Positions 1-4,243 of a DNA stretch of 4,243 nucleotides are shown piece by piece (position 1 is the first letter of the stretch; each line of letters opens with the position of its first letter). The position numbers and the translations under genes were made by a program. The DNA lies in the IMG/VR virus record IMGVR_UViG_3300014510_000013. One strand, given 5' to 3'. This DNA is from a virus. Lineage: Duplodnaviria > Heunggongvirae > Uroviricota > Caudoviricetes. The notes under the pieces were generated by a model. The model had not been told where the DNA came from, ran no database searches, and was given only the letters and a program-made list of their open reading frames with translations.

Positions 1-349
1 GCGCCGCCTCAATTGCAGATAATCTTTGTCTTAATTCTGCGTTTTCTTCTTCCAGTGCTGTTATTCTGTCGTCTGACTCTCTGGCTACCTGAACAAGCAA
101 GCCAGTAACACCAGAATAATCTACTGTGTAATAACGTTCACCTTCTTCACCTTCCGATCCGCTCGCACCGTCCTGATATTTCATTGCGGAACCTACAACT
201 TCTGGGATTGCTTCCAGAGCTTCCTGTGCAATGACACCAGCATAGGGCATACCGTTTTCTTTAAGCGTGTATGTATAGCCGTTCATTTTACGGATGCGGT
301 CGGTTGCATTATCGATCACCTGAATGTTGTCTTTCAGATCCCGGTCGGA
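1..349 (-). other. Region encoding the intramolecular chaperone auto-processing domain (predicted cleavage before Ser227, codon 349..347; Lys232 codon 334..332)
   Basis: HSDRDLK motif with Ser/Lys spacing identical to the catalytic dyad of S74 chaperone domains; downstream conserved blocks as listed for the parent CDS. Confidence 0.65.
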
Positions 350-1027
350 ATGCTGGTTAAATGCGGTGGCATGACATGCACCATTAACGCTTAACATATA
401 GGTGTTATCGGTATTTTTCTGCGCATAGAACATATAAGCGCCACCATCAACACCGACTTCATAAACAACCGGACGGCTAGAGTTGCCCCACAATTTAGCA
501 GTAACACCAGCATAAGCGGTTCCCTGTGTGGTTAATGTCATGGTTGACCCGTGATTAGCATATTTGATCTGTAATGAGTCTGTATTATCAAACTTAATAA
601 GCGCGTTACTTCCCCGCACACCATACGACATGAGACAGTTCCCCATCTTAAGGTAACCATCACTGCCTGGAAAAATTAAAGTTCCTCCGTTAAGATCACT
701 AAAGTCCCAAAAGATACCTTTTGTCCCGTTATGTGTGACGATCCTCGTCATTGTATCTTTAGTACCATCAATATTTTTTCTGGTATATATGTCACTATAA
801 GCGTTTTCCGTTTCACCAGTCTTATTTGACAAATGCAGCTTACCGCTGAATATAGTTCCAGTTGTTGGCAATGTTTTTTGATCATAGATTACTTTGCAAT
901 AACCATTCCATGTTGTTTTATTGTCTACATAAGATTTTGTTGCGTAGCTTCCTTGATCGTTTTTTAATTTGCTAACGTCGGATTTTAGCGTTTTGATGTC
1001 ATCAGGAATTACTGTTTTTGTAACCAT
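1..1027 (-). CDS. Tail fibre / tailspike-like protein with C-terminal intramolecular chaperone (peptidase S74-like) domain; partial, C-terminus runs off the window start
   Basis: Minus-strand reading frame open from ATG at 1027..1025 to the window edge (342 codons, no stop); not in the ORF track because it is partial. GGAG at 1038..1035, 7 nt upstream of the ATG. My hand translation begins MVTKTVIPDDIKTLKSDVSKLKNDQGSYATKSYVDNKTTWNGY. Residues 227-342 (nt 349..2) read SDRDLKDNIQVIDNATDRIRKMNGYTYTLKENGMPYAGVIAQEALEAIPEVV...ERYYTVDYSGVTGLLVQVARESDDRITALEEENAELRQRLSAIEAA, which matches the conserved pattern of the endosialidase/T5 L-shaped-fibre chaperone domain (Ser then Lys at i+5, G-x-IAQE, DYS..L..L, terminal helix). 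Family assignment is from memory, not a search. Confidence 0.75.
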   Translation of the reverse strand, partial: MVTKTVIPDDIKTLKSDVSKLKNDQGSYATKSYVDNKTTWNGYCKVIYDQKTLPTTGTIFSGKLHLSNKTGETENAYSDIYTRKNIDGTKDTMTRIVTHNGTKGIFWDFSDLNGGTLIFPGSDGYLKMGNCLMSYGVRGSNALIKFDNTDSLQIKYANHGSTMTLTTQGTAYAGVTAKLWGNSSRPVVYEVGVDGGAYMFYAQKNTDNTYMLSVNGACHATAFNQHSDRDLKDNIQVIDNATDRIRKMNGYTYTLKENGMPYAGVIAQEALEAIPEVVGSAMKYQDGASGSEGEEGERYYTVDYSGVTGLLVQVARESDDRITALEEENAELRQRLSAIEAA

Positions 1028-1039
1028 TGTCTTACTCCA

Positions 1040-1309
1040 TTAAGCCCATGTCCTTACATGCTGATCTGTCGTAATGAAAGGCATTAAAGAAGATATGTTT
1101 TTACTGCTATCAACAATCCTCATGTTTACGAAAAAACCACCGCGATCAATGCCTGTACATCTTTCGTTTTCTGGCTCCTCGTAATCAATAATGCAGCCAA
1201 TAACATCAACAAGAACCCCATTTTCTTCTTCAAGACTGAACAGGCCACTGTCATATACAATTGCGTTAAACTGTTCTCTGTTATCGAATCGTAATGTTAT
1301 ATCCCGCAT
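1040..1309 (-). CDS. Hypothetical small acidic protein (89 aa), translationally coupled to stf; function unknown, possibly a fibre assembly or adaptor factor
   Basis: ORF from the track. ATG at 1309..1307 shares one nucleotide with the stf stop TAA (1311..1309), giving a TAATG overlap. AAGGAA lies 8 nt upstream inside the stf 3' end. Stop TAA at 1042..1040. About 16 Asp+Glu versus 8 Lys+Arg; no transmembrane-length hydrophobic segment. I recognise no similarity to lambda Tfa / T4 gp38. Confidence 0.6.
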   Translation of the reverse strand: MRDITLRFDNREQFNAIVYDSGLFSLEEENGVLVDVIGCIIDYEEPENERCTGIDRGGFFVNMRIVDSSKNISSLMPFITTDQHVRTWA

Positions 1310-3672
1310 TATACGTATTCCTTAAGCTGCGTATCTGACAATGCTCTGTTCCAGAAACGGAGGTTTTTTATATGACCATTAAGGTGTCGTAATCCTGTCG
1401 TCGTTTGCCCCCCGATTCGAATCACGGCTGCTTCACGAATATATTTCCATACTGTTTTGGTTTCAGTGCTTATATGCTTATTTGCAAATGAGCATGTCAT
1501 GCCGTCAGCCTTAACCCTGAATCCCATAACGAGATCTCTTACTCCGCATGACTCATATACACGCCGGTTAGCCCCGCCTATATCGCAATACGAATAACCA
1601 TCCTGACTGATAGTTCCAGAAGAACCAAACCCCATAATAAATAGGCCTCCGGACTGGTGATTTTCTGAATCAATGACACGCGGTGCAGCATTATGAGAAA
1701 TAAACCAGTTTTTATGGACTTCCACCATGAACGTAAAAGGCATGGTATACATATTTTTCATCAGCGGAAACTTACATAAATCTGATGCACGAGTCGCTGG
1801 CTCTGTTGTCGTTATGATAAAGGAAGTTGCACAAGCACCATACTCAAATTGCGGGGTGGTTACTTCTATCCAGTCACCTGTTGCAAAAGACCCCACAGCT
1901 CTGTCGGCTGCAATTTGCAACTGCGTACCAACCATTCCCCATTCTGGCAGACATTTCAGGGTTGCCTGAAAATATATCCATCCACTACCTGGATCGATTT
2001 CAAAGTTTGCTGTTAATAGCTGGGCATTATCACCCGTAATTTGTAGTTCATGGGTCTGTAATGACAAATAGGCGTCACAAAGGAAAGTGTATCCTTCCGA
2101 GTTATACCGTTCAAAACGGATACGTGCGCGAACATTGAGATCACTTCTTACCCTGAACGACGCGGTAACATACGGACCTTTACTGTACTGATCATCGCCA
2201 GTCACATCTATGCCTCTATTACCAGCAACTGTGCATATATTTCTCCCTGTTGTCGTTCCTGCTATGTCGCTTCCTACTGTGAAACGTCCATATTTAAACT
2301 CAAATTCATCTGTTGATGATGTTACAGATATACCACCGCTTTTATTCCACGCATCAGGATTAAAACTATTTACGAACATGTTTGTTCGCTGATTCTCTAT
2401 CAGCAAACCATATTTTTCAAAACGAGGAACGTTATTCCCTGCCACGGTAATATGCCCGGACTTATCAATATACGTTGCAGATGAAGCCCGGCTAAATTGG
2501 CATATGCCATTAACTGGCACAGTAATTTCATCGCTGCCGATGGTTATTGTTTTATACCCCGGCGCATACCCTGTTATCGCTTCCAGAGAATCATTCAAGG
2601 GTAGCCAGATATCAGGAAGCGGAGGGACAGAAGCAGGATCAGCGGCATCTTCTGCAATCCTGGCTGCATTCTCTGCTCTTGTTGCGGCTGACGTTGCTTC
2701 TGTCTCGCTGGCTGCTGCTTTTGTTTCGCTCGCCTTTGCGTTAGTTTCACTGGTTTTTGCAGCTTTTTGGCTATTAGCTGCCGCTGTTGCAGAACCGGCT
2801 GCAGCACTCTCGCTTTCGGCTGCTGCATCCTGACTGCTTTTCGCCGCAGTTTCGCTGGCTTTGGCATTCGTTTCGCTGGTCTTTGCTGCCGTCTGGCTGG
2901 ACTTTGCGTTAGTTTCACTCGTCTTTNNNNNNNNNNNNNNNNNNNNNNNNNNNNNNNNNNNNNNNNNNNNNNNNNNNNNNNNNNNNNNNNNNNNNNNNNN
3001 NNNNNNNNNNNNNNNNNNNNNNNNNNNNNNNNNNTTTTTTGCCGCAGTTTCACTGGCTTTGGCATTCGTTTCGCTGGTCTTCGCTGCCGTCTGGCTGGAC
3101 TTTGCGTTGGTTTCGCTCGTCTTTGCGGCTGTCTCGCTGTTTTTTGCGTTGGTTTCTGATTTTTTGGCTGCTGTCGCGGAGTTTGCCGATGCAGTCTGCG
3201 AGGTCGCTGCCGCCTGTGCGCTGTTAGCTGCATTCGTTTCTGAGGTTTTCGCCGCGTTCTTCGATGATGCCGCTGCAGTTTCGGATTTCTTTGCCGCCGC
3301 TGCGCTCTGAGAGGCGGCTTCAGCGTTGCGTGCCGCTTCTTCCACCATTTCCTCAAAACGACGCAATGCCTCCGGCATGACATCATCTTCCGTCATGGCG
3401 CCGAGAAAATCATTCAGCGTACCTGGTCTGGAACCTTCATAGACGGTAATGGTCCCGGCATGTGAAGGCGGAAAACCTTCAACCAGCAGGATGACGCTGT
3501 ACTGGCCATACTCAACATCCAGGCTGTACCGTCCGTCTTCATCCGGATTTTCAGAGGCCACCGTGTTCACCAGTACCGTGGTGCTGTTACGCTTTGCCTT
3601 CAGTTGAATAGTGCAGTTCTGTATTGGTTTTCCCGCACCATCTTTCAGCACACCTGAAATCTGTACTGCCAT
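1309..3672 (-). CDS. stf: Side tail fibre protein: lambda Stf-like N-terminal domain, Ala/Ser/Thr-rich heptad-repeat shaft, divergent distal domain
   Basis: Long minus-strand ORF; the track starts at GTG 3678, but the in-frame ATG at 3672..3670 has GGAG at 3681..3678 and gives MAVQISGVLKDGAGKPIQNCTIQLKAKRNSTTV, which I recall as the conserved N-terminus of lambda-family Stf proteins (not searched). Central K-x-S-E-T-[N/A]-A heptads. C-terminus ends GHIKNLRFWNRALSDTQLKEYV, stop TAA 1311..1309. The ORF stays in frame across the 108-N run. Confidence 0.88.
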   Translation of the reverse strand: MAVQISGVLKDGAGKPIQNCTIQLKAKRNSTTVLVNTVASENPDEDGRYSLDVEYGQYSVILLVEGFPPSHAGTITVYEGSRPGTLNDFLGAMTEDDVMPEALRRFEEMVEEAARNAEAASQSAAAAKKSETAAASSKNAAKTSETNAANSAQAAATSQTASANSATAAKKSETNAKNSETAAKTSETNAKSSQTAAKTSETNAKASETAAKXXXXXXXXXXXXXXXXXXXXXXXXXXXXXXXXXXXXXKTSETNAKSSQTAAKTSETNAKASETAAKSSQDAAAESESAAAGSATAAANSQKAAKTSETNAKASETKAAASETEATSAATRAENAARIAEDAADPASVPPLPDIWLPLNDSLEAITGYAPGYKTITIGSDEITVPVNGICQFSRASSATYIDKSGHITVAGNNVPRFEKYGLLIENQRTNMFVNSFNPDAWNKSGGISVTSSTDEFEFKYGRFTVGSDIAGTTTGRNICTVAGNRGIDVTGDDQYSKGPYVTASFRVRSDLNVRARIRFERYNSEGYTFLCDAYLSLQTHELQITGDNAQLLTANFEIDPGSGWIYFQATLKCLPEWGMVGTQLQIAADRAVGSFATGDWIEVTTPQFEYGACATSFIITTTEPATRASDLCKFPLMKNMYTMPFTFMVEVHKNWFISHNAAPRVIDSENHQSGGLFIMGFGSSGTISQDGYSYCDIGGANRRVYESCGVRDLVMGFRVKADGMTCSFANKHISTETKTVWKYIREAAVIRIGGQTTTGLRHLNGHIKNLRFWNRALSDTQLKEYV
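2632..3330 (-). repeat. Tandem 21-nt (heptad-coding) repeat array inside stf, with higher-order units of about 198 nt
   Basis: Protein reads KKSETNA KNSETAA KTSETNA KSSQTAA KTSETNA KASETAA on both sides of the gap. On the + strand 2843..2926 and 3041..3124 are 84-nt copies with 4 mismatches, offset 198 nt. Confidence 0.8.
2927..3034. other. Run of 108 N (masked or unresolved sequence) inside the stf repeat array
   Basis: Directly visible; the length is a multiple of 3, so the stf frame continues across it. Confidence 0.99.
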
Positions 3673-3683
3673 ACTCACTCCAC

Positions 3684-3711
3684 AAATAAAAAAGGCGCCA
3701 TTGCTGGCGCC
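3684..3711 (-). terminator. Rho-independent terminator-like hairpin plus U-tract between the upstream tail gene and stf
   Basis: The minus strand reads GGCGCCA-GCAA-TGGCGCC (perfect 7-bp GC-rich stem, 4-nt loop; + coords 3711..3694) followed immediately by TTTTTTATTT (3693..3684). It lies between the upstream ORF stop (TGA 3735..3733) and the stf RBS. Confidence 0.6.
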
Positions 3712-3732
3712 CGTATTGGGGTTATAAATATT

Positions 3733-4243
3733 TCAACGGATACTGATACCGGAAGCAGCTTTTTTGGTCACAATCACCGTACAGTCTGTGATGTTTCCTG
3801 CGCCCTGATTGCCTTTCTGGAAAATCTTAAACTCCAGAGTGACGTTACCACCACCACTCGGCATATCAATAACCGCACTGTAACTACCGGGAATGGCTCC
3901 TTTAGTTTCTCTGGATGCGATTAATACGCCATTTTTGCGAACTTCAAAACCATAACCCGTGTATCGCGTACCTCCCGGGTTATTACCGCTCCCCGGATCG
4001 TCATACGCCACACCGTTAAAAATAATGGGCGGAATAATGATTTGGCGGTCAAAGTTATGATCATCGTAAATGGTGACTGTAACCGTCCCGTTTGGTGTTT
4101 CCGTGTTACCCCACGTACCAGCCTTTTTCGGGAATGATTTGGATACAGTTTTAACGAAGTCACCTCTGACCTGGTTCGCCTCCAGCATGCCCTTAATCGT
4201 ACAGTTTTCATTTACCGTGACATTATTGAGCGTCCCGGAGTTC
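3733..4243 (-). CDS. C-terminal fragment of a phage tail structural protein (possibly central tail fibre / host-specificity J-like); 5' end lies outside the window
   Basis: The track ORF starts at Met 4188, but the frame stays open upstream to the window end (my translation of 4243..4189: NSGTLNNVTVNENCTIKG, no stop), so it is the end of a longer protein. Gly/Thr/Val-rich, beta-strand-like composition; stop TGA 3735..3733. Immediately upstream of stf, where lambdoid phages carry J (and sometimes lom). This is not Lom-like by my recollection of the Lom sequence. Identity is tentative. Confidence 0.55.
   Translation of the reverse strand, partial: NSGTLNNVTVNENCTIKGMLEANQVRGDFVKTVSKSFPKKAGTWGNTETPNGTVTVTIYDDHNFDRQIIIPPIIFNGVAYDDPGSGNNPGGTRYTGYGFEVRKNGVLIASRETKGAIPGSYSAVIDMPSGGGNVTLEFKIFQKGNQGAGNITDCTVIVTKKAASGISIR

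What the first reader, a model, noticed from the sequence alone, without database searches (positions are those of the whole stretch)
1312..2631. Stf distal domain appears mosaic, with a concanavalin/LamG-like C-terminal signature where lambda has a gp37-like tip
After the repeat shaft the protein has about 440 residues ending GHIKNLRFWNRALSDTQLKEYV. A G-x-I-x-N-[LV]-R-[FI]-[WY]-N-R-A-L-S-x-x-[QE]-[IL] ending is characteristic of LamG / concanavalin-like jelly-roll domains in phage adhesins. A lectin-type tip would not need a Tfa chaperone, which fits the missing tfa, and implies a carbohydrate receptor.
Basis: inference. Interest (0 to 1): 0.45.

Follow-up and report, generated by a model that had tools for sequence, protein, structure and literature searches.

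The report
Chimeric side tail fibre, lectin-like head
This prophage side tail fibre keeps the lambda-type base and shaft, but its tip has been swapped for a widespread two-domain, lectin-like head that always travels with a small partner gene and here also with a second short fibre; the fold prediction was right, but the head belongs to an already catalogued family.

Summary
Window 1312-2631 (minus strand) encodes the last 440 residues of a 787-aa Stf. Residues 1-349 match lambda Stf (52% identity); the rest has no similarity to lambda's tip.

tfa is absent from the window, and relatives keep only a 36-codon tfa scar. The "no chaperone needed" inference is not supported. An 89-aa acidic ORF (phrog_1361), overlapping the stf stop codon, followed the module in every phage and prophage locus examined. 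It is followed here by a second fibre whose N-terminal peptide (TxTxIPxDITxLK) is shared by otherwise unrelated fibres in the same cassette position, which suggests a branched fibre.

The most likely function is non-enzymatic glycan binding for primary adsorption; this is inferred, not shown. The family is already annotated, and a 99%-identical Stf exists in phage PhiR55_1. Verdict: new member of a known kind, moderate interest.

The parts
3280..3672 (-). Stf N-terminal tail-attachment domain (lambda Stf type)
   Evidence: PF08400 phage_tail_N at 224 bits, residues 3-133. 83% DNA identity to the start of lambda stf.
2632..3279 (-). Ala/Ser/Thr-rich repeat shaft, including the masked run of N at 2927-3034
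   Evidence: Repeats of the AAKTSETNAKSS type align with the lambda orf-401 shaft. N run located.
2347..2631 (-). Conserved junction motif (PLPDxWxPxxDSL) and N-segment of the distal module. This is the most conserved part of the family.
   Evidence: Mean 64% identity across 16 diverse modules. P4 P6 D7 W9 P11 D14 L16 ... R70 F71 E72 G75 L76 L77 E79 T83 N84 are at least 80% conserved in 127 sequences. Similarity to lambda Stf ends here.
1846..2346 (-). Hypervariable core of the head-spike-fibre beta-sandwich domain; probable specificity determinant
   Evidence: NF048003 covers residues 77-282 of the 440. Profile match to RcGTA Rcc01080 at E=4e-41, and to E217 gp45, Pa193 gp46 and Sf11 gp17. 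pLDDT 80-97. Mean identity only 28%.
1750..1845 (-). Conserved junction strand (QFEYG...ATRASD) closing the first domain
   Evidence: Q261 E263 S270 I272 T274 T280 R281 A282 D284 are at least 80% conserved. 55% mean identity.
1312..1749 (-). C-terminal LamG / concanavalin-A-like jelly-roll domain ending GHIKNLRFWNRALSDTQLKEYV
1040..1309 (-). 89-aa acidic partner protein (phrog_1361). Its start overlaps the stf stop (TAATG).
   Evidence: phrog_1361 at E=1e-30. Same family directly downstream of the module in AKFV33, EmilHeitz, rolling, Lambda_2G7a, KurtStettler, an Aeromonas prophage and a Mu-like prophage. 40 of 40 viral loci. pI 4.4. No similarity to lambda Tfa.
983..1027 (-). Conserved N-terminal peptide MVTKTVIPDDIKTLK of the second fibre (putative docking segment)
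   Evidence: M1 T3 T5 I7 P8 D10 I11 L14 K15 are invariant among seven otherwise unrelated downstream fibres. 80 of 80 viral loci with this peptide have the small ORF and the module upstream, with a 9-12 nt gap.
2..1027 (-). Second, short tail fibre (342 of ~346 aa; runs off the window) with a C-terminal intramolecular-chaperone domain at about 194-349
   Evidence: phrog_4563 at E=9e-207. PF13884 Peptidase_S74 at 52.5 bits, residues 227-278.

Best explanation
The gene encodes a chimeric side tail fibre. Its first ~349 residues are the lambda-type tail anchor and Ala-rich shaft. At a conserved Pro-rich junction (PLPDxWxPxxDSL) they are joined to a ~440-aa C-terminal head. The same head is found on the tail fibres of many unrelated phages: lambdoid, T5-like, Dhillonvirus, Seuratvirus, rV5-like and Mu-like.

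The head consists of two beta-sandwich domains. The first is a head-spike-fibre domain with a hypervariable core. The second is a terminal LamG/ConA-like jelly roll.

The most likely function is non-enzymatic binding of a surface glycan (O-antigen, capsule or LPS core) for reversible primary adsorption, with the variable surfaces setting specificity.

The head arrived by recombination as a cassette. The cassette replaced the lambda-type tip and most of tfa, and it brought its own partner: an 89-aa acidic protein encoded by an ORF whose start overlaps the stf stop. That protein is most likely a dedicated assembly factor or a tip-bound subunit. In this prophage the cassette also carries a second short fibre, which probably docks onto the head or its partner through its conserved N-terminal peptide, giving a branched fibre.

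Shown: the domain architecture, the fold, the mosaic junctions, the gene linkage and the conserved peptide. Inferred: glycan binding, the role of the partner, and branching.
For: Architecture and fold.

Mosaic junctions: left at residue ~349; right as a scar of tfa codons 156-191, at 83-89% identity, downstream of the cassette in relatives; GC drop.

Same head on different N-termini: 218 phage records and 2102 cluster representatives, always C-terminal.

Variable surfaces on a conserved frame: HSF core 28%, LamG 41%, N-segment 64% identity.

Glycan binding by a homologue: the RcGTA head fibre binds capsular polysaccharide (PMC10218006; PMC7296036). Top structural neighbours are non-catalytic binding domains (AbnA domain 4, BoNT Hc-N, sialidase lectin/CBM40 domains, pentraxins), and no GH16-type catalytic motif is present.

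Partner gene. It associates with a LamG-sized C-terminal extension: 7 of 26 against 0 of 32, Fisher p=0.002.

Second fibre. The peptide is absent where the distal fibre is covalently fused (DT530 LtfAB). AKFV33, which has this cassette, is listed among the T5-like phages with two ltf genes in the paper that proposes branched lateral fibres (PMC4728585).
Against: No ligand-binding experiment exists for any E. coli member that I could find.

The Pfam LamG score of this sequence is below the gathering threshold.

LamG/ConA-like domains can also bind proteins.

In the three solved virions that contain the homologous domain (E217 gp45, Pa193 gp46, Sf11 gp17), its function is not described, or is stated to be unknown (Sf11, PMC12724387). 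Those proteins act as docking sites for other fibres or spikes.

The model is a monomer. The oligomeric state of the head on a trimeric shaft was not modelled.

The co-variation test could not say which domain the small partner touches.

The samples behind 40/40 and 80/80 are dominated by close relatives of the window.
Confidence: 0.6

Rival explanations
1. The head, together with the 89-aa protein, is mainly a structural branching socket. Its job would be to hold the second fibre, which is the real receptor binder, and the jelly rolls would be scaffolding.
For: Unrelated downstream fibres share the N-terminal peptide TxTxIPxDITxLK. That peptide always follows the small ORF plus the module. 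It is missing when the distal fibre is covalently fused. In E217 and Sf11, the proteins that carry the homologous domain are the docking sites for the fibre or spike (PMC10329688, PMC12724387). A branched LTF model exists for T5-like phages (PMC4728585).
Against: The module plus the small ORF occur with no second fibre in phage rolling, Lambda_2G7a, a Mu-like prophage and others. The HSF core is hypervariable, as receptor-binding surfaces are. In E217 and Sf11 the docking element is a loop or helix outside the homologous domain. This rival is not exclusive of the best explanation.
Confidence: 0.2
2. The head binds a protein receptor (an outer-membrane protein such as OmpC, as proposed for Ur-lambda Stf) rather than a carbohydrate.
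For: LamG/LNS and botulinum-toxin Hc domains also mediate protein contacts; structural neighbours are listed. Ur-lambda side fibres were suggested to bind OmpC (cited in 10.1101/2024.09.12.612763).
Against: The only characterised homologue binds capsule polysaccharide (PMC10218006). The best structural neighbours are carbohydrate-binding modules. Lateral fibres of the phage groups carrying this head are generally assigned to glycan recognition (10.1101/2024.09.12.612763). The head is unrelated to the lambda tip.
Confidence: 0.12
3. The ConA-like domain is an enzyme (a glucanase, lyase or esterase of the ConA-like superfamily) that degrades the host glycan.
Confidence: 0.04
4. The distal region is a diverged gp37/lambda-type tip that still needs a Tfa encoded beyond the window.
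For: The window ends inside the second fibre, so genes further downstream cannot be seen.
Against: No similarity to the lambda Stf tip (E=1.1). No fibre-tip or collar family in Pfam at E up to 1. The fold is a jelly roll. Relatives with more sequence have only a 36-codon tfa remnant, and PhiR55_1 has none before its integrase.
Confidence: 0.01

Closest known systems
Rhodobacter capsulatus GTA head spike fibre Rcc01080 (GhsB; PDB 6TB9 chain F3; NCBIfam NF048003)
   Same: Homologous head-spike-fibre domain (phmmer E=3e-4; family profile E=4e-41), including the FxRASxATY...PRFE...GLLxExxxTN and TRAxD frame. It is a flexible peripheral appendage, and it binds capsular polysaccharide experimentally (PMC10218006).
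   Different: It sits on the capsid, one chain per pentameric base. It has only a 44-aa tail after the domain, with no LamG-like domain and no small partner gene detected. Only residues 2-10 were resolved experimentally (PMC7296036).
Lambda / Ur-lambda side tail fibre Stf with Tfa
   Same: N-terminal anchor and Ala-rich shaft (52% identity over 349 aa; PF08400). Same genomic position after J.
   Different: The distal 440 aa are unrelated. tfa is replaced by an unrelated 89-aa gene plus a second fibre. lom is absent between J and stf in this window.
T5-like phage AKFV33 orf137-orf136-orf135 (two-ltf-gene locus), and the branched LtfA/LtfB fibres of DT57C and DT571/2
   Same: Same three-gene cassette: fibre ending in this head (33% identity), a phrog_1361 protein (31%), and a second fibre with the same N-terminal peptide. 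DT57C genetics support LtfB attaching through LtfA (PMC4728585).
   Different: The N-terminal anchor is T5 Ltf-type. DT57C LtfA itself ends in an S74 chaperone domain, not this head. In DT530 LtfAB the distal fibre is covalently fused and lacks the peptide. Branching has not been shown for the cassette type seen here.
E217 gp45 (8ENV), Pa193 gp46 (9B45) and Sf11 gp17 (9OCC): baseplate or distal-tail proteins with the homologous domain
   Different: The domain is an appendage of a baseplate or DTP subunit, not the end of a fibre. There is no LamG-like C-terminal domain in the matched range. The appendage's function is stated to be unknown for Sf11.
Laminin_G_3 (PF13385) / ConA-like lectin folds: pentraxins, botulinum toxin Hc-N, sialidase CBM40, AbnA domain 4
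   Same: Fold and C-terminal strand motif of the last ~146 aa.
   Different: Sequence identity is 7-16%. This sequence scores below Pfam's threshold. No ligand or metal site could be assessed.

Membership tests
Pfam PF13385 Laminin_G_3 (ConA-like lectin/glucanase superfamily) | Score at or above the curated gathering threshold (27.6 bits) | tested here: not met
   20.8 bits, E=4.6e-4, covering only profile positions 103-150 of 151. However, 30 of 58 homologues match at E<=1e-3, the best at 9.9e-11, and many have a precomputed PF13385 hit.
Pfam PF13385 Laminin_G_3 (ConA-like lectin/glucanase superfamily) | Two-sheet beta-sandwich jelly-roll fold | tested here: met
Pfam PF13385 Laminin_G_3 (ConA-like lectin/glucanase superfamily) | Carbohydrate (or Ca2+) binding site | not testable with these tools
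   No ligand modelling was available, and no conserved acidic cluster was seen.
NCBIfam NF048003 phage head spike fibre domain | Score above the curated cut-off (36 bits) | tested here: met
   50.3 bits, residues 77-282 of the 440, profile 1-181 of 182. Family profile against 6TB9_F3 gives E=4e-41.
Lambda-type side tail fibre (Stf) | N-terminal tail-attachment domain PF08400, located after J | tested here: met
   224.4 bits. 52% identity to lambda orf-401. The J C-terminal domain lies upstream (PF12421).
Lambda-type side tail fibre (Stf) | gp37/lambda-type distal tip, with the tfa (PF02413) chaperone gene downstream | tested here: not met
   No similarity to orf-314. No tip or collar family. 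The 89-aa ORF against Tfa gives no alignment. No tfa in the window, and only a 36-codon scar in relatives.
Branched lateral tail fibre (DT57C LtfA/LtfB type) | Two adjacent fibre genes, the second lacking a tail anchor of its own | tested here: met
   The second fibre (2-1027) has no PF08400. It carries an S74 domain and the conserved N-terminal peptide.
Branched lateral tail fibre (DT57C LtfA/LtfB type) | Physical attachment of the second fibre to the first | not testable with these tools
   Needs complex modelling, pull-down or cryo-EM.

The most novel reading that the evidence does not exclude
The head-spike-fibre/LamG head and its phrog_1361 partner may form a universal plug-in socket for interchangeable second fibres. 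Any fibre that starts with the peptide TxTxIPxDITxLK could dock onto it non-covalently. If so, lambdoid, T5-like and Seuratvirus phages would share one modular system for building branched fibres and swapping host range. The recurring link between this domain and fibre-docking proteins (E217 gp45, Sf11 gp17) would then reflect a common docking role.
Probability: 0.25. Interest if true: 0.6.

Novelty: new member of a known kind. Interest (0 to 1): 0.35.

Why it matters
Side and lateral tail fibres decide which strains a phage can adsorb to. This head type is common in E. coli prophages and in lytic phages used as models or for therapy, including Dhillonvirus, T5-like and rV5-like phages. I found no receptor or structural study of it. 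Three facts give concrete handles for host-range prediction and fibre engineering: the head is a two-domain lectin-like module with a hypervariable first domain; it is exchanged as a cassette with fixed junctions; and it always comes with a small partner gene and often with a dockable second fibre. The result also shows that absence of tfa does not mean the fibre has no helper.

Tried and rejected
1. The first AlphaFold run used a shallow alignment (18 sequences, about 50% identity or more). The C-terminal 175 aa came out at pLDDT ~30. It was replaced by a 58-sequence alignment.

2. A homology search with the C-terminal 152 aa alone returned only fragments of the same family.

3. PDB 6TB9 gave no fold for the matching stretch, because only residues 2-10 of the GTA fibre were resolved.

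4. A mirror-tree test asked which segment co-varies with the small protein. All segments gave rho 0.5-0.7, so it does not discriminate.

5. An HMM-based cross-table of LamG against the small partner across 58 distant bacterial loci showed no association: (LamG, small) counts were 0/0=38, 0/1=6, 1/0=13, 1/1=1. This was limited by sensitivity. The association appeared only when the length of the C-terminal extension was used instead.

6. A profile of the small protein against PDB sequences found nothing.

7. Protein comparison did not list the N-terminal alignment to lambda Stf. A local BLAST without composition adjustment showed it.

8. Literature searches for PhiR55_1-type phages, for LamG in tail fibres, and in the Gifsy-1 Stf and BASEL papers found no study of this head. 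The O16-binding Dhillonvirus fibres described have T5-like tips instead.

9. The afdb50 fold library was not available.

10. The enzymatic reading was rejected on motif and neighbour evidence. The gp37-type tip was rejected.
Full report
**What is there.** All genes in the window lie on the minus strand. In order they are:
- the C-terminal receptor-binding domain of J (3733-4188; PF12421);
- a terminator-like hairpin (3693-3712);
- a 787-aa Stf-like ORF (ATG at 3672, stop at 1309-1311);
- an 89-aa ORF whose start overlaps the stf stop (1040-1309);
- a second fibre gene that runs off the window (2-1027).

The finding's coordinates, 1312-2631, are exactly the last 440 codons of Stf, and the quoted C-terminal sequence is correct. 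The ORF crosses 108 masked bases in the repeat shaft (2927-3034). A 99%-identical, uninterrupted 785-aa Stf exists in phage PhiR55_1.

**Mosaicism.** Stf residues 1-349 align to lambda Stf (orf-401) residues 1-353 at 52% identity (E=1e-102), and the first 367 nt are 83% identical at the DNA level. The similarity ends at the left edge of the finding. The distal 440 aa have no similarity to the lambda tip, orf-314 (best E=1.1). GC drops from 0.53-0.55 to 0.40-0.45.

The same 440-aa unit is the C-terminus of fibres with quite different N-termini. It occurs in 218 phage records: lambdoid, T5-like, Dhillonvirus, Seuratvirus and rV5-like. It also occurs in 2102 cluster representatives.

Relatives with more downstream sequence carry, after the cassette, only codons 156-191 of a lambda-type tfa at 83-89% identity. 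So the right-hand recombination junction lies inside tfa. The mosaic claim is confirmed, with both junctions located.

**Domain architecture.** The 440 aa are not one domain.
- NCBIfam NF048003 ("phage head spike fiber domain") matches residues 77-282 above its cut-off (50.3 against 36 bits).
- A profile of 33 diverse family members matches the Rhodobacter GTA head spike fibre at E=4e-41, and E217 gp45, Pa193 gp46 and Sf11 gp17 at 1e-14 to 1e-16, all over profile positions 39-279.
- The same profile matches ConA-like proteins over positions ~268-411: 4QVS at 8e-6, C-reactive protein at 7e-5, botulinum toxin D Hc at 9e-3, and NanA CBM40 at 0.03.
- On this sequence alone, Pfam Laminin_G_3 reaches only 20.8 bits, below the gathering score of 27.6, and covers only the last 49 residues. 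However, 30 of 58 relatives match it, up to 1e-10.

**Structure.** A first AlphaFold model from a shallow alignment failed for the C-terminal third. A second, from 58 diverse sequences, is confident throughout (pLDDT 88.6, pTM 0.87).

Foldseek agrees. Its long alignments to tandem-repeat galectins suggest two sandwiches in tandem. BFVD neighbours are tail fibres of phages rolling, EdH4 and NBEco002 (TM up to 0.92), followed by many proteins labelled ConA-like or LamG-like.

Neither occurred.

**Conservation pattern.** Across 127 family members the conserved residues sit in three places: the junction motif and N-segment, the QFEYG...TRASD strand, and the last strands (G407-Q435). The core of the first domain and the interior of the LamG-like domain vary.

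Across 16 diverse modules, mean identity is 64% for the N-segment, 28% for the head-spike-fibre core, 55% for the junction and 41% for the LamG-like domain. A conserved frame carrying hypervariable surfaces is what receptor-binding modules look like. By this measure the first domain, not the LamG domain, is the more likely specificity determinant. This is inference.

**The "missing tfa".** The window has no tfa. The position of tfa is taken by an 89-aa acidic protein (pI 4.4) of family phrog_1361, whose start overlaps the stf stop (TAATG).

The same family lies directly downstream of the module, with overlapping or abutting stop and start codons, in AKFV33 (T5-like), EmilHeitz (rV5-like), rolling (Dhillonvirus), Lambda_2G7a and KurtStettler (Seuratvirus). 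A related small ORF is also there in an Aeromonas prophage and a Mu-like Atlantibacter prophage, whose fibres are only ~26-32% identical.

Starting from the small protein instead, 40 of 40 viral loci have the module at the C-terminus of the ORF that ends within 0-3 nt of its start.

Among 58 distant bacterial loci seeded with the GTA fibre, the small partner was detected only next to proteins with a 135-180-aa C-terminal extension ending in the LamG-type motif: 7 of 26 against 0 of 32, Fisher p=0.002. The R. capsulatus fibre itself has neither.

The partner has no relative among solved structures, and its role is unknown. Its size, charge, overlapping start and strict linkage are typical of fibre-specific assembly factors or tip-bound subunits. 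The claim that a lectin tip needs no helper is therefore not supported.

**The third gene.** The window's second fibre is 342 of ~346 aa, belongs to phrog_4563, and has a Peptidase_S74 intramolecular chaperone domain. It begins MVTKTVIPDDIKTLK.

Fibres in the same position in other cassettes have unrelated bodies (227, 330-346, 510 and 557-586 aa), yet all begin M-x-T-x-T-x-I-P-x-D-I-[TK]-x-L-K. In 80 of 80 viral loci with this peptide, the small ORF and the module lie immediately upstream, with a 9-12 nt gap. That sample is dominated by close relatives of the window.

In the DT530 LtfAB fusion protein, homology to AKFV33's second fibre begins only after this peptide, which is replaced by shaft repeats. 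The peptide therefore belongs to the versions in which the distal fibre is a separate protein, as expected of a non-covalent docking segment.

The paper that proposes branched lateral fibres for T5-like phages lists AKFV33 among the phages with two ltf genes (PMC4728585). In E217 and Sf11, the proteins that carry the homologous domain are the subunits onto which a trimeric fibre or spike docks (PMC10329688, PMC12724387). A branched side tail fibre is therefore plausible here, but it is not shown.

The module and its partner also occur without any second fibre. Docking therefore cannot be their only role.

**Function.** The only characterised homologue, the RcGTA head spike fibre, binds capsular polysaccharide (PMC7296036, PMC10218006). 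The best structural neighbours are non-catalytic carbohydrate-binding modules. There is no GH16-type motif and no conserved acidic residue in the LamG part.

I therefore favour non-enzymatic glycan binding for primary adsorption, with confidence about 0.6. The rivals are a mainly structural branching socket (0.2, and not exclusive of the main explanation), a protein receptor (0.12), an enzyme (0.04), and a diverged gp37-type tip (0.01).

**Novelty.** The head is catalogued: NCBIfam NF048003, PHROG 1419 at E=2e-183, and RefSeq names such as "phage head spike fiber domain-containing protein". A near-identical Stf is deposited. I found no experimental work on the E. coli versions.

The finding is a correct fold call on a new member of a known kind. 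The strict linkage to the small partner and the shared N-terminal peptide of the downstream fibres are the more interesting by-products.

Noticed in passing
window 2927-3034: A run of 108 N (36 codons, in frame) masks part of the Ala-rich repeat shaft of stf. ORF continuity there cannot be verified from the window itself.
   Followed up: partly
window 3679-3732: lom is absent. J is followed directly by stf, separated by a 54-nt spacer holding a strong terminator-like hairpin (3693-3712, 8 pairs, 6 G-C, then a T run). Relatives (L001, L002) have lom between J and stf.
   Followed up: partly
window 2-1027 (minus strand): A second, short tail fibre with a C-terminal Peptidase_S74 intramolecular chaperone domain. 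Its first 15 residues are shared with otherwise unrelated fibres in the same cassette position in T5-like, Seuratvirus and other lambdoid phages.
   Followed up: yes
L001:10053-10160; L016:4678-4785; L014:4290-4397 and others: A remnant of only the last 36 codons of lambda-type tfa (83-89% identity) lies downstream of the cassette in relatives. It is a recombination scar marking the right-hand junction.
   Followed up: yes
L002:7292-7585; L006:5051-5344; L039, L041, L050, L051 (ORF just downstream of the small-partner ORF): A conserved 97-102-aa hydrophobic ORF (MDITP.LHALCAVAAQ...NMPWWGGFDPR.WD) often ends the cassette. In some phages it directly follows the small partner in place of a second fibre. 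Its function is unknown; it may be a membrane protein.
   Followed up: no
L009/L010 4001-5728 (Aeromonas prophage): Here the module-bearing protein sits between head/adaptor genes (Phage_capsid_3, SU10_adaptor) and the tail genes. This raises the possibility that it is a head or neck fibre, as in the GTA. In a Mu-like prophage (L011/L012) it sits between the DNA-circularisation gene and the baseplate hub genes.
   Followed up: no
P0234, P0251, P0279; L074, L083, L091, L116: Some distant proteins carry two or three tandem copies of the whole module, or three LamG-like domains after one head-spike-fibre domain.
   Followed up: no
one search hits H1-H3, H6; L001 6018-8375: In complete E. coli genomes only 34 of 5426 hold at least 80% of the window. 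Several copies are interrupted by IS elements (IS5 or IS3 family, by hit). In L001, stf is annotated as a partial pseudogene plus a separate "head spike fiber domain" CDS. These prophage fibre loci are often decayed or mis-assembled across the repeats.
   Followed up: no
window 3733-4188 (minus strand): The J C-terminal receptor-binding domain (PF12421) diverges from lambda's at the DNA level; only the first 67 nt of the window's reverse complement match lambda J. The central fibre probably also has a different receptor specificity.
   Followed up: no
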